Assembly (NCBI GenBank): GCA_964510585.1
Contig: CAZECW010000022.1
Span: 1 to 23,231, forward strand
Source: an uncultured archaeon
Lineage (GTDB): Archaea > Asgardarchaeota > Jordiarchaeia > Jordiarchaeales > Jordiarchaeaceae
Length of the DNA: 23,231 bases
Direction of reading: 5' to 3'
Part shown: piece after piece, positions 3,450 through 21,608 of the stretch
Layout of the letters: each line of letters opens with the position of its first letter
Numbering within the stretch: position 1 is the stretch's first letter
The notes under the pieces: model-generated
What the model was told of the DNA's origin: nothing
Databases searched by the model: none
What the model saw: the letters and a program-made list of their open reading frames with translations, nothing else
Program-made: the position numbers and the translations under genes

Positions 3450-3914
3450 CTATTCTTCTGTGTATGTGCCTATTGACCCCTCAGCCTCCTCCACTGAAAC
3501 CCTTATTTTCATGTTTTTGAGGGGTGACTGTTTTAGCTGTTTATAAATATATTCGGATATTTTTTCCACAGTGGTTGCCTCAATAGGCAAAAGTAATGCG
3601 TCATCCTTGGGGAAGATGTACCTCCTCCTGTTTGCTATAACCTCTATTTCTTTTCCCATCTCCCTGATTTCTACTTCCTTTTCTTTAGTGGGTATCAGTA
3701 TGTGGTGATCCATTTTCTGACAGATATCCCTCGCTACGTTTCTTACATCTAGAAAGTCCACTATCATCTGCTGACTGTTAAGTTTATCGGACTCAATCTC
3801 AATAGTTACCTTATAGTTGTGGCCGTGTATACGCTCACATTTCGGGTGACGAAGGAGGAAATGAGCCGCAGAAAAGTTTAGGTCAGTTCTTTCCACCTTA
3901 AGCTTGTAGACCAT
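3450..3914 (-). CDS. queD: 6-carboxy-5,6,7,8-tetrahydropterin synthase (6-pyruvoyl-tetrahydropterin synthase family)
   Basis: FSAAH, CERIHGHNY (Zn ligands and Cys), IVDF, MDH and TTVE motifs; lies downstream of queE on the same strand. Confidence 0.9.
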   Translation of the reverse strand: MVYKLKVERTDLNFSAAHFLLRHPKCERIHGHNYKVTIEIESDKLNSQQMIVDFLDVRNVARDICQKMDHHILIPTKEKEVEIREMGKEIEVIANRRRYIFPKDDALLLPIEATTVEKISEYIYKQLKQSPLKNMKIRVSVEEAEGSIGTYTEE

Positions 3915-4117: not shown

Positions 4118-5008
4118 TCAGAGTATTCCCAACACTTTATGGGCTTGAATTGATACTGAAATGTCATTTTTATGAAGATACTTTGCCGCGGCTTCAGTGA
4201 ACTGGAACAGTTGTTTTATTGTGGGTTTTTCCCCCACTTCGCCATATGGAGATACAATCTGAATGCATAGGGGGCATCCCAACTTAGCGAGCTCCCTAGC
4301 ATACCATTCAATATTCTCCGATTTTGTTTGGGATGTAACTACAACCTTGGCGAAGGTCTTTGCCTTTGCCTCAACTAAAACCTGTATGGTTTCCAACTCT
4401 CTCTCCACTAGGGCTCTCCAGTCTGAAGCAGCCCCCGCCGTCTCATCTTTAATATCACAGCAGCAGTATTCAAAAAGTTCAGCCACCTTTGAAGCACACC
4501 CAGGTAAAGAACCATTAGTTTCAAGATAGAGAATATAACCTTCTGAGACAAGGTTCTCTGAAACTTCCCTCAGGAAATCCGTTTGAAGTAAAGGCTCCCC
4601 ACCAGTAAATGACACCGAGTGAAGATCCGCAGTTTTCAGTTTTCTCACATAGCTGCAAAGAGTTGCTGGATCTATGGGATTTGCTTGCTCTGCGAATTTT
4701 CCAGTCCCGGGGCTTTCTTCCATTCTAACCTGAGGTGCGTCTGGTTTTTGAGCTCCAGGTGATTTGCGTCTTAGTATGTTCTATAAGATGTCGCACCACC
4801 TGCAGCCCCTAGTTCCAAACTCCCCCATAGCTAGGTTGCAGCCCGCGAATCTAGCGATTCGACGGATGAATAGCTTCTATTCCTCCTATATCTGGCGCTT
4901 TCCATAACACGAGCCGCTGACGCTACCTCCTTCTCCTTTACCTCCCCCTCTCTGGGGGATTTGGTAGGAAGAGAACACCTCAGCGACCCATCCCTTAACC
5001 AAGACCAT
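4118..5008 (-). CDS. queE: 7-carboxy-7-deazaguanine synthase QueE (radical SAM), split by three short introns; join(complement 4961..5008, 4888..4936, 4790..4857, 4118..4762), 269 aa when spliced
   Basis: Exon lengths 48+49+68+645 = 810 nt. Spliced translation begins MVLVKGWVAEVFSSYQGEGGSVSGSCYGKRQIFARFAGCNLAMGEFGTRGCRWCDSPGAQKPDAPQVRMEESPGTGKF and continues with SFTGGEPLLQ, YLETNG and DIK, all QueE motifs. The start is uncertain: ATG 5008, TTG 5002 (5 nt after GAGGTGA) or ATG 5026. Confidence 0.88.
4763..4789 (-). other. Putative BHB intron 3 of queE (27 nt)
   Basis: mRNA CAGGUG-G-UGCG-AC | A-UCUUA-UAGAACAUAC-UAAGA-CGCA-AA | U-CACCUG. Perfect 4-bp central helix UGCG/CGCA, 5-bp intron helix, 6-bp exon-exon helix; contains an in-frame TAG (4781-4783). 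Removal gives W-C-D-S-P. Confidence 0.85.
4858..4887 (-). other. Putative BHB intron 2 of queE (30 nt, phase 1)
   Basis: mRNA AGCG-CC-AGAU-AU | A-GGA-G-GAAUAG-AAG-CUAUUC-A-UCC-GUCG-AA | U-CGCU. The intron helix has 9 bp plus one mismatch; central helix AGAU/GUCG pairs 3 of 4. The unspliced frame has two TAGs. Removal gives R-Q-I-F-A-R-F-A-G-C. Confidence 0.75.
4937..4960 (-). other. Putative BHB intron 1 of queE (24 nt)
   Basis: mRNA UUCC-UACC-AA | A-UCCCCC-AGAGA-GGGGGA-GGUA-AA | GGAG. Perfect central helix UACC/GGUA and 6-bp intron helix. Removal joins the conserved Q|GEG motif. Confidence 0.82.
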
Positions 5009-5042
5009 CACCTCAAAACAGGCCATGTCACATCCTTTTAAA
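5008..5042 (-). promoter_or_regulatory. Candidate TATA box (TTTAAAA, 5042-5036) and SD-like GAGGTGA (5014-5008) for queE
   Basis: The TATA-like element is about 28 nt upstream of ATG 5008, and GAGGTGA is 5 nt upstream of TTG 5002. Sequence resemblance only. Confidence 0.35.
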
Positions 5043-5360
5043 TAACTTGCCTATAATTTAAGTCTGCTCCCCTCTCACACCTGTCCAAAATATGGAGTGC
5101 TCCATCGAGTCTTAAACATATAACAGTAAGTTTTTTACATTCAGGGGCCAACTCGTTTTTGGCTAGGCGTAAAGGGGACGACTCTGCTCCTGATTTCGTG
5201 AACCTCTCAGGAAAATTGGATAGAATAATTCGAAAATCAAACATAAAAAGTGGACGTCTTCTACGGTGCAGTCAAATCTTTTGTTCATAAAGCTTATGTA
5301 CTGGTTTCTACTCTGTTAGCTTGCCTGAGGCGGATTCCCATGTCTCTAGTAGGACTCTTG

Positions 5361-20300: not shown

Positions 20301-21608
20301 ATGATACAAAAGGCATTGGAAAACTACATGCATAAATTTATTGTGGATATCTGCAAAGAAATTGGGCCACGAGAATCGGGCTCAAAGGAAGAGGAACTCG
20401 CAGGAAACAGGGTGGAAGAGGAACTGAAAAAATTCTGTGATAAAACACACCAAGAAGAATTCATCAGCAGCCCCACAGCTTTTCTGGGCTTCATCAGGTA
20501 CGGTTCAATAATGATAATTTGTGGAATCATCCTCTACTGGTTATCCCTCTTAACTGATCTAGGATGGCTTCAAATTGGCACCAATCCCATCGATTTGGTT
20601 TTAATCGGCCTGGGACTAGCGCGAGGCAGTTCCCTTGGCTTGGTTCTCTCACTAATTGCCAGCATACTTGCGGTTTTTGCAGTTAGCTACTTCATTCTAG
20701 AAGTGATGCGCTACAGAGAACTAGTGGACTTTATGTTCCCCAAAAAGAGGTCCAAAAACATCATTGGAACAATAAATCCCACTGGCAAAGTTAAACACAC
20801 CATAATTTTTGCCGGCCACCACGATTCAGCCTACGAATTTAACATATTTTACTACCTAAAGACAATAGGTAGTTTAACAATCTTCATAGGCTACCTTGGA
20901 GTAGTAATCTTTAGCATCGTTAGCGTTTTGAAAACAATCTTTTATTTCCTCCCCCTCAACTTAACCCTAGTCTTTTTCTGGTTCGGAATTTTCTTCCTGT
21001 TCCTAACTCCCATCGCAGCCATCTACATTTTCTTCCACAGCTATAAACCAGTACCAGGAGCCTTCGACAACCTATCCGGAGTGGCCGTGGTGCTAGGAAT
21101 AGGCAAATACTTATCCGAAAATAAGAACAATCCAAAAATATATCCCAAAAACACTCGCATCCATCTAATCTCATTTGCCGGTGAGGAAGCTGGACTACGG
21201 GGATCCAAACGCTACGTTAAAGCCCACTATGAGGAATTAAAGAAAAATAACACTATTTTAATAAACATGGATGGCATAGCAGCAAAGGACTCCGCCGTTA
21301 TATTTGAGAAAGAAACACTAATAGGCGCAAAACACAACCCCGAATTATGCAACACTTTATTAAAAATTGCTCAGGAACAAGGCATAAATGCCCGCCTAGG
21401 AGCTTTACCCTTCGGAGCAACAGACGCCGCAGCCTTCAGCCGCAAAAAACTGCCAGCAACAACAATCGGATCCCACGAACTAAAAGGAAGGCTACCCGAA
21501 TTCTACCACACAAGACTTGACACCCCCGAAGTAGTGGACAAAGAAGCCCTAGGACAAATACTACAAATCTGCCTAGGATACATAAAATACATCGACAATT
21601 TAACTTAA
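20301..21608 (+). CDS. Membrane-embedded M28-family metallopeptidase
   Basis: AGHHDSA, GAFDNLSGVA, GEEAGLRGS, INMDG and YHTRLD zinc-binding motifs, with about four hydrophobic segments inserted. Confidence 0.82.
   Translation: MIQKALENYMHKFIVDICKEIGPRESGSKEEELAGNRVEEELKKFCDKTHQEEFISSPTAFLGFIRYGSIMIICGIILYWLSLLTDLGWLQIGTNPIDLVLIGLGLARGSSLGLVLSLIASILAVFAVSYFILEVMRYRELVDFMFPKKRSKNIIGTINPTGKVKHTIIFAGHHDSAYEFNIFYYLKTIGSLTIFIGYLGVVIFSIVSVLKTIFYFLPLNLTLVFFWFGIFFLFLTPIAAIYIFFHSYKPVPGAFDNLSGVAVVLGIGKYLSENKNNPKIYPKNTRIHLISFAGEEAGLRGSKRYVKAHYEELKKNNTILINMDGIAAKDSAVIFEKETLIGAKHNPELCNTLLKIAQEQGINARLGALPFGATDAAAFSRKKLPATTIGSHELKGRLPEFYHTRLDTPEVVDKEALGQILQICLGYIKYIDNLT

What the first reader, a model, noticed from the sequence alone, without database searches (positions are those of the whole stretch)
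4937..4960. Intron 1: stop-free, frame-preserving intron that ORF callers cannot see
Perfect UACC/GGUA central helix with a 6-bp C/G stem (UCCCCC/GGGGGA). If retained it would add IPQRGGGK inside the conserved Q-G-E-G substrate-binding motif without a stop. Such introns would be annotated as short protein insertions, so more of them may be hidden in this genome and its relatives.
Basis: partly seen in the sequence, partly recalled or inferred. Interest (0 to 1): 0.8.

Follow-up and report, generated by a model that had tools for sequence, protein, structure and literature searches.

The report
Hidden tRNA-type intron in Asgard queE
A 24-base stretch inside the queE gene of a hot-spring Asgard archaeon is very probably a tRNA-type intron, one of three in this gene, and public gene models for this gene in its relatives are truncated, start in a wrong frame or read such an intron as protein.

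Summary
Observation confirmed. Window 4937-4960 (minus strand) lies inside the only queE-like radical-SAM gene of a Jordarchaeia/"Freyarchaeia" genome. It folds as a canonical bulge-helix-bulge (BHB) motif: 4-bp helix UACC/GGUA, two 3-nt bulges, a 6-bp inner stem and an outer exon-exon helix. Cutting after the second base of each bulge removes exactly these 24 nt and restores Y-Q-G-E-G.

Two more BHB mini-introns follow at 4858-4887 (30 nt) and 4763-4789 (27 nt). All 11 genomes of the class, plus further public contigs, carry inserts at the same three sites. Lengths are 15-32 nt, mostly not multiples of 3. The inner stems show compensatory changes, and removal gives one open frame wherever I spliced it. 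The 34 other Asgard genomes with the orthologue have it uninterrupted and without a loop.

The exons are under purifying selection (dN/dS 0.05-0.22). Two EndA subunits and RtcB are present.

Three of the 33 intron copies in the 11 genomes are in-frame and stop-free. GenBank and other gene models read two of them as peptide (WCD-SKKRK-TPH, WCD-ILYNMLRRE-SPG).

No RNA evidence could be obtained for this gene. A screen of this genome against 78% of a congener found no further convincing hidden intron. Earlier notes of this scan report BHB introns in other genes of the same genome. Closest known: the cbf5 intron of Crenarchaeota.

The parts
4961..5026 (-). queE exon 1. The first ATG is at 5026. 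The ATG at 5008 is the more likely start, because only that Met is conserved in congeners (EVM-LVKGW). The exon ends with ...UAC CAA (Y-Q).
4937..4960 (-). Intron 1, the finding: 24 nt, phase 0, in frame and stop-free (IPQRGGGK). It comprises the last base of bulge 1, the inner stem-loop UCCCCC-AGAGA-GGGGGA, GGUA of the central helix, and the first two bases of bulge 2.
4924..4977 (-). Whole BHB motif of intron 1. Outer helix 4977-4967 pairs with 4935-4924 (one bulged base on each strand). Central helix UACC 4966-4963 pairs with GGUA 4942-4939. Bulges are AAA 4962-4960 and AAG 4938-4936. Predicted cuts lie between 4961|4960 and 4937|4936.
   Evidence: 95.5% of cells paired over 11 genomes; outer-helix pair col 9:50 covaries UA/CG
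4888..4936 (-). queE exon 2 (49 nt): GEGGSVSGSCYGKRQI plus the first base of a Phe codon.
4858..4887 (-). Intron 2: 30 nt, phase 1. The exon's last U plus the intron's AG make an in-frame UAG. The central helix is AGAU/GUCG, with 3 of 4 pairs here and 4 of 4 in the sister family. The long inner stem shows compensatory changes among congeners.
4790..4857 (-). queE exon 3 (68 nt): (F)ARFAGCNLAMGEFGTRGCRWCD, which holds the Cys motif of the radical-SAM cluster.
4763..4789 (-). Intron 3: 27 nt, phase 0, contains UAG. Central helix UGCG/CGCA, bulges ACA and AAU, inner stem UCUUA/UAAGA.
4118..4762 (-). queE exon 4 (645 nt including the stop): SPGAQ...VLGIL*. Public annotation calls only its last 201 codons (4118-4723) as 'radical SAM protein' or '7-carboxy-7-deazaguanine synthase'.
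3450..3914 (-). Neighbouring queD (6-carboxytetrahydropterin synthase). It gives the pathway context for calling the split gene queE.
   Evidence: TIGR03367, 83 bits, E 1.4e-23

Best explanation
Window 4937-4960 is a bulge-helix-bulge (tRNA-type) intron in the pre-mRNA of the organism's single queE-like gene. It is the first of three such mini-introns (24, 30 and 27 nt) that split the 5' 200 nt of the gene into micro-exons of 48-66, 49 and 68 nt. Shown: the anatomy, its conservation, and a restored ORF. Inferred: the mechanism, as follows. The transcript folds locally so that the last bases of exon 1 (UACC) pair with the last bases of the intron (GGUA), flanked by two 3-nt bulges. The archaeal splicing endonuclease cuts after the second base of each bulge. 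Here the enzyme looks like a two-subunit alpha-beta type. RtcB joins the exons (...UAC CAA|GGA GAA...) and probably circularises the intron. The mature mRNA encodes a 269-275 aa QueE with an intact Q-G-E-G motif and Cys cluster motif. Intron 1 happens to be in frame and stop-free in this genome only; that is an accident of length, not a property of the element.
For: Anatomy: canonical helix-bulge-helix-bulge-helix with a perfect central helix. Cutting by the standard rule gives one ORF in all 11 genomes of the class. It does the same in three of the five further public contigs I fetched: one Ca. Freyrarchaeum guaymaensis, one Logan assembly and one that repeats G006. Of the other two, one shows the same three interruptions in its frame translations but was not spliced by my script, and one lacks exon 1 in the stretch examined. 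Spliced products align without gaps at all three junctions to 23 uninterrupted orthologues. Intron 1 lengths are 19-26 nt, with changes on both sides in 5 of 6 inner-stem pairs; 95.5% of cells are paired against 59-69% for slid controls. All 34 other Asgard genomes that hold the orthologue have it as one open frame, so the introns are a class-specific gain. dN/dS is 0.05-0.22 over the 50 codons that span the three introns. The gene is single-copy, and queD, queC, arcTGT and an ArcS-like gene are intact. Machinery: two EndA-domain genes, one with and one without the catalytic His as I read them, and one RtcB gene. Lineage context: 92-95% of tRNA genes of Freyarchaeia and Atabeyarchaeia carry introns, often several and at non-canonical sites (PMC11291895). 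ARAGORN finds only 6 tRNA genes here.
Against: No spliced RNA was seen for this gene. The outer helix needs one bulged base on each strand. RNAfold's minimum-energy fold shows a 2-nt rather than a 3-nt second bulge. Intron 2 has only 3 of 4 central pairs in this genus, and intron 3 of the sister family has almost no inner stem, so some copies need a relaxed-specificity enzyme. BHB-like motifs are common by chance.
Confidence: 0.85

Rival explanations
1. The 24 nt are translated: a lineage-specific 8-residue loop (IPQRGGGK) in QueE, not an intron.
For: In this genome the insert is in frame and stop-free. Gene callers read it as protein (P0012).
Against: At the same site, 9 of the 10 other genomes of the class have lengths that break the frame (20, 22, 23, 25, 26 nt), and the tenth (21 nt) carries a stop. 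The peptide is not conserved but the RNA helices are. The insert splits a motif that is invariant and gap-free in 23 orthologues. The mRNA still needs introns 2 and 3 removed, since both contain UAG.
Confidence: 0.03
2. The gene is a decaying pseudogene and the inserts are debris.
For: Three interruptions with stops lie within 200 nt. Public annotation calls only fragments.
Against: The same three sites are kept across two families of the class. dN/dS over the interrupted stretch is 0.05-0.22. Removal restores the ORF in every genome I spliced. It is the only copy, and the rest of the archaeosine pathway is intact.
Confidence: 0.03
3. The interruptions are skipped by the ribosome (translational bypassing, programmed frameshifts or stop read-through) rather than by RNA splicing.
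For: Nothing here shows RNA removal directly. Bypassing of short structured gaps exists in phage T4 gene 60 (my own knowledge, not checked here).
Against: Take-off and landing codons do not match (CAA against GGA at intron 1). Three separate hops, two across UAG, of lengths that vary from 15 to 32 nt among relatives would be needed. The conserved feature is precisely the endonuclease's recognition motif, with cut sites that give the right frame. The lineage is known for heavy use of that enzyme on tRNAs.
Confidence: 0.04
4. Assembly or sequencing artefact.
For: All the genomes are metagenome-assembled.
Against: The same structure appears in 11 independently assembled genomes. One is a closed genome that its authors validated with long reads (PMC11291895). 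It also appears in further contigs from other projects and in contigs of two more runs from a strain roughly 93% identical.
Confidence: 0.01

Closest known systems
cbf5 pre-mRNA intron of Crenarchaeota (Desulfurococcales, Sulfolobales; Watanabe 2002, Yokobori 2009, PMC2738675)
   Same: A BHB intron inside the coding region of an archaeal protein gene. It is very short (cbf5 16-44 bp; here 15-32 nt) and sits in a highly conserved motif. It is assumed to be cut by a heteromeric splicing endonuclease. Some cbf5 copies (33, 36 and 39 bp) also keep the reading frame, so a frame-preserving BHB intron is not new in itself. The host gene serves RNA modification in both cases.
   Different: Different gene (queE) and a different lineage (Asgard class Jordarchaeia). 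There are three introns in one gene, with micro-exons of 49 and 68 nt, whereas the cbf5 paper treats one. Splicing of cbf5 was shown experimentally; here it is inferred.
Non-canonical and multiple tRNA introns of Freyarchaeia and Atabeyarchaeia (PMC11291895; bioRxiv 10.64898/2026.10.13.758758) and of Thermoproteales
   Same: Same lineage, same motif, same presumed enzymes, several introns per gene, and rapid change of intron length.
   Different: Those are in tRNA genes. Neither paper mentions introns in protein genes in the passages I searched.
Other BHB introns noted by this scan in protein genes of the same genome (hypD, ppsA, a ferredoxin, selD, leuC, alba, an oxidoreductase alpha subunit, rpl44e)
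   Same: Same genome, same kind of mini-intron (28-33 nt), usually inside conserved motifs.
   Different: Those notes describe single, frame-breaking or stop-bearing introns. This gene has three, and this copy is invisible to ORF calling. I did not re-test those notes.

Membership tests
Archaeal bulge-helix-bulge (BHB) intron | Two 3-nt bulges on opposite strands, separated by a 4-bp helix | tested here: met
   UACC/GGUA with bulges AAA and AAG. The central helix is 100% paired in 11 genomes. RNAfold's own minimum-energy fold draws the second bulge as 2 nt.
Archaeal bulge-helix-bulge (BHB) intron | Flanking helices on both sides (the strict form), supported by covariation | tested here: met
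   Inner stem of 4-7 bp; 5 of 6 pairs change on both sides; 92% of cells paired. Outer exon-exon helix 95.5% paired, with one covarying pair and one bulged base on each strand.
Archaeal bulge-helix-bulge (BHB) intron | Symmetric cuts in the bulges yield exons that join into a functional product | tested here: met
   Cutting after the second bulge base gives a single ORF in 11 of 11 genomes and in 3 further contigs. The products align without gaps to intron-less orthologues. This is a computational test only.
Archaeal bulge-helix-bulge (BHB) intron | Splicing endonuclease and RtcB ligase are encoded in the genome | tested here: met
   Two PF01974 genes of 192 and 198 aa; by my reading of the sequences the second lacks the catalytic His. 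One PF01139 gene.
Archaeal bulge-helix-bulge (BHB) intron | The intron is absent from the mature RNA | not testable with these tools
   No RNA data informative about splicing could be obtained for this gene (see Tried and rejected).
QueE (7-carboxy-7-deazaguanine synthase) | Match to curated QueE models above their cut-offs | tested here: not met
   The best NCBIfam QueE models score 37-51 bits against cut-offs of 200-300, for the uninterrupted orthologue. The only PDB sequence matches are QueE structures 4NJG and 6NHL, at E 1.5e-5 and 7e-4. I therefore call it QueE-like.
QueE (7-carboxy-7-deazaguanine synthase) | N-terminal QGEG motif, a radical-SAM Cys motif with a long first spacer, and pathway context | tested here: met
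   After splicing: FSSYQGEGG and C-x12-C-x2-C. This aligns to EIFYTLQGEG...C...CRFCD of Burkholderia QueE. queD is adjacent, and queC and arcTGT are in the genome.
Translational bypass element (T4 gene 60 type) | Matched take-off and landing codons flanking the gap | tested here: not met
   CAA before the gap and GGA after it at intron 1. Intron 2 splits a codon. The definition is from my own knowledge.
Intein, group I or group II intron | Size and conserved catalytic motifs or structure | tested here: not met
   15-32 nt only; no Rfam family in the window; the frame is broken in most relatives.

The most novel reading that the evidence does not exclude
Jordarchaeia use the tRNA-splicing enzymes as a general mRNA-splicing system. 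On this reading genes can carry several mini-introns and micro-exons, and introns are gained and lost within a genus. I saw a 56-nt BHB insert in a congener's SAH-hydrolase-like gene that this genome lacks. In-frame copies such as this one could then be retained or removed, giving two protein forms. Expression of queE, which makes the precursor of a tRNA modification, would depend on the capacity of the tRNA-splicing machinery.
Probability: 0.2. Interest if true: 0.9.

Novelty: new member of a known kind. Interest (0 to 1): 0.68.

Why it matters
Asgard archaea are the closest prokaryotic relatives of eukaryotes, so interrupted protein genes in them bear on how split genes and mRNA splicing arose. 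In the papers I could search, only cbf5 is documented as an archaeal protein gene with a BHB intron, and none reports such introns in Asgard protein genes. A gene with three such introns and 49- and 68-nt exons shows how far this lineage has gone.

There is also a practical point. None of the seven public gene models I read for this gene in the class is correct. They are truncated, start in a wrong frame, or contain intron-derived residues. No full-length model above 57% identity to the window's protein turned up. Metabolic reconstructions could therefore score the archaeosine pathway as defective. Protein alignments and structure predictions would also inherit false insertions. In-frame copies cannot be found by looking for broken ORFs; they need comparison across relatives.

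Tried and rejected
(1) RNA evidence. The look-up of sequencing runs listed no holder on record as RNA. Two runs labelled metatranscriptomic (judged probably DNA) gave contigs of a roughly 93%-identical strain that keep all three introns and show no joints. This is uninformative about splicing. In that strain intron 1 has an extra base, making 25 nt.

(2) Exact spliced-junction patterns for introns 1 and 3 found nothing in JGI metagenome contigs. So neither an intron-less allele nor a cDNA-like contig was seen there.

(3) A protein search for a full-length, spliced-type QueE of this class found none. All hits of 261-273 aa are at most 52% identical and come from other lineages. The one hit above 70% identity that is 264 aa long has a wrong-frame N-terminus.

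(4) A structure-only genome scan for BHB motifs gave 110,971 loose hits and no enrichment of ORF-joining or in-frame cases at any stringency. Most 'joining' hits are gene boundaries. I rejected this as a way to find hidden introns.

I looked at split HSPs within one ORF, divergent islands with a BHB in both genomes, and in-frame insertions of 4 or more residues with conserved flanks (35 and 50 cases). None gave a convincing further case. One attractive candidate (contig C88) proved to be conserved promoter and 5' leader. Sensitivity is low for short exons and ORFs under 60 aa.

(6) Rfam: no family in the window.

(7) I could not confirm from the papers held that QGEG is a substrate-binding motif. 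It is invariant, but its role rests on my recollection of the QueE structure paper.

Full report
WHAT IS THERE. The finding lies on the minus strand, inside a gene that ORF listing shows only as fragments: a 46-aa ORF (4886-5026) and a 201-aa ORF (4118-4723). One frame of the minus strand reads through the whole stretch. It gives MACFEVMVLVKGWVAEVFSSYQ-IPQRGGGK-GEGGSVSGSCYGKRQI-*EE*KLFIRR-IARFAGCNLAMGEFGTRGCRWCD-IL*NILRRK-SPGAQ.... The 201-aa part is a radical-SAM protein with its best named matches to QueE models. queD lies next door at 3450-3914, and formylmethanofuran dehydrogenase subunits D and A lie on the other side. There are no tRNA genes or Rfam families in the window.

ORGANISM. Close relatives of the gene carry record titles Candidatus Jordarchaeia, Candidatus Freyarchaeota and Ca. 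Jordarchaeum madagascariense, including the closed genome CP147778.1. The window therefore comes from an Asgard archaeon of the class Jordarchaeia ('Freyarchaeia'). The genome is 3.78 Mb and 96% complete.

Bases 4960 down to 4937 are AUCCCCCAGAGAGGGGGAGGUAAA. The last exon bases UACC pair with GGUA at the 3' end of the insert. Each strand then has a 3-nt bulge (AAA, AAG). UCCCCC pairs with GGGGGA as an inner stem. The exon sequences on either side form an outer helix. This is the layout of an archaeal BHB splicing motif. Cutting after the second base of each bulge is the rule I recall for the archaeal endonuclease. However, BHB-like motifs are frequent by chance, so the motif alone proves little.

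COMPARATIVE EVIDENCE. All 11 genomes of the class held (two families, three genera) have the gene, and all are interrupted at the same three places. Applying the same cutting rule gives a single open frame in every one.

Lengths of introns 1/2/3 in the 11 genomes are:
- 24/30/27 (this genome)
- 25/30/27
- 26/30/27 (two genomes)
- 21/30/30
- 20/30/29
- 22/19/15
- 22/18/16
- 22/19/17
- 26/19/17
- 23/23/17

Five further public contigs were fetched. Three gave a single ORF by the same rule: one Ca. Freyrarchaeum guaymaensis (19/29/32), one Logan assembly (22/19/17) and one that repeats G006. A fourth shows the same three interruptions in its frame translations, but my script did not splice it. The fifth lacks exon 1 in the stretch examined.

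For intron 1, 9 of the 10 other genomes break the frame and the tenth has a stop. So the insert cannot be a conserved peptide. The RNA structure, by contrast, is conserved. The central helix is paired in all 11. Five of six inner-stem pairs show changes on both sides (UCCCCC/GGGGGA, UCCCU/AGGGA, CUUCC/GGAAG, CCUUCC/GGAAGG, CCUUA/UAAGG). Overall 95.5% of pair cells are paired, against 59-69% when the partners are slid. RNAalifold found the inner stem, the first bulge and the outer helix on its own. The first base of both bulges is A in all 33 intron copies.

OUTGROUPS. In a sample of 201 genomes of the phylum, 34 genomes outside the class hold the orthologue. In every one it is a single open frame of 269-318 aa without stops. 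The spliced products of the class align with 23 of these without a gap at any of the three junctions: FSSYQ|GEGG, KRQIF|xRF, WCD|S/TP. The introns therefore look like gains at the base of the class.

NOT A PSEUDOGENE. Over the 50 codons that span the three introns, dN/dS is 0.05-0.22 in the five pairs where dS could be estimated. The gene is the only copy. queD, queC, arcTGT and an ArcS-like gene are intact.

MACHINERY. The genome has two genes with the endonuclease catalytic domain, of 192 and 198 aa. The first keeps the Tyr, His and Lys that I recognise as catalytic; the second lacks the His. This suggests a catalytic-plus-structural pair, as in Crenarchaeota. That is my reading of the sequences, not a tested assignment. 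According to PMC5829648 (abstract), only the alpha-beta and epsilon types cut non-canonical introns. That would fit the weak inner stem of intron 3 in the sister family. One RtcB gene is present. The literature reports introns in 92-95% of the tRNA genes of Freyarchaeia and Atabeyarchaeia, often several per gene (PMC11291895). ARAGORN recognises only 6 tRNA genes in this 3.78-Mb genome, which fits heavily interrupted tRNA genes.

MECHANISM (INFERRED). The pre-mRNA folds into three local BHB motifs. The endonuclease cuts each one in both bulges. RtcB ligates the exons and probably circularises the introns. The mature mRNA encodes a 269-aa protein (start at 5008) or a 275-aa protein (start at 5026) with QGEG and C-x12-C-x2-C restored. 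An unspliced message would stop at the UAG that straddles the 5' splice site of intron 2 and would yield the 46-aa peptide.

THE 'HIDDEN INTRON' POINT. Of the 33 intron copies in the 11 genomes, three are in frame and stop-free. They are intron 1 here (IPQRGGGK), intron 3 in a congener (ILYNMLRRE) and intron 3 in a sister-family genome (SKKRK). Exact look-up shows that public gene models read them as protein. A 251-aa 'QueE' (MBS7246932.1, MEM1511301.1, MEM2046649.1, MEM2156883.1) contains WCDSKKRKTPH and a wrong-frame N-terminus. A 236-aa model contains WCDILYNMLRRESPG. An IMG model is the 46-aa peptide with IPQRGGGK. The window's 201-aa fragment is named 'radical SAM protein' or '7-carboxy-7-deazaguanine synthase'. 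A wider protein search found no correct full-length model for the class. Frame-preserving BHB introns were already noted for cbf5 in some Crenarchaeota (PMC2738675), so the idea is not new, but here the mis-annotation is real.

HOW COMMON ARE HIDDEN ONES? I could not show more. Structure-only scanning is swamped by chance hits. Comparing this genome with 78% of congener G005 in three ways gave no further convincing in-frame intron. These screens need ORFs of at least 60 aa and well-conserved flanks, so they would have missed this very case. They did reveal introns that differ between congeners (see noticed in passing).

WHAT IS MISSING. There is no RNA evidence for this gene. No listed run is on record as RNA, the contigs laid keep the introns, and junction patterns are absent from JGI contigs. 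Earlier notes of this scan on other genes of the same genome describe the same kind of intron. Two of them claim an exactly spliced form in a data set labelled metatranscriptomic. I did not test those claims.

VERDICT. It is a new member of a known kind (a cbf5-type BHB intron in a protein gene). It is notable for the lineage, for three introns in one gene, and for demonstrable mis-annotation. I put 0.85 on RNA-level removal by the tRNA-splicing enzymes.

Noticed in passing
G005 (congener, closed genome) about 1,877,015-1,877,070, minus strand; orthologue in G000 contig C4, ORF from 19,899 (+): The congener's SAH-hydrolase-like gene (motif AEETTTG|VIRL) carries a 56-nt insert with a perfect BHB: CCGG / AAU / 9-bp stem / CCGG / AAU. 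The insert breaks the frame. This genome has no insert there. This is an intron presence/absence difference within one genus.
   Followed up: partly
G000 contig C4, about 20,558-20,590 (+): The same SAH-hydrolase-like gene in this genome has a 30-nt in-frame, stop-bearing insert (WET*TPPVFK) between NDTPTK and PKFDN. It is probably another mini-intron, and the congener shows the same ORF end. Exact boundaries were not worked out.
   Followed up: partly
G005 about 2,174,560-2,174,700, minus strand; G000 contig C90, 450-aa ORF (minus strand): Where this genome reads EVYPAPYGKAPFMKE continuously, the congener appears to have two stem-loop-bearing inserts, before and after PAPFG, that break the frame. 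They may be two lineage-specific introns. The gene family was not identified.
   Followed up: partly
G000 contig C58:3702-5036 (+): The single RtcB gene has one in-frame TGA inside a full-length match. It could be selenocysteine, an intron or an error.
   Followed up: no
G000, whole genome: ARAGORN recognises only 6 tRNA genes, 4 of them with introns, in a 96%-complete 3.78-Mb genome. Most tRNA genes are presumably too interrupted for it.
   Followed up: no
G000 contigs C68 (about 5,423), C167, C34, C39 and others, against G005: About 80 places where one genome's continuous ORF matches the other genome in two frames 1-2 nt apart. These may be single-base frameshifts, assembly errors, or shadows of antisense ORFs. 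Not sorted out.
   Followed up: no
window 5035-5050 (minus strand): A TATA-like TTATTTAAAA lies about 10-20 nt upstream of the first ATG (5026). A transcript start about 26 nt downstream of it would fall between the two ATGs, which favours the conserved ATG at 5008 as the start. This is my inference only.
   Followed up: no
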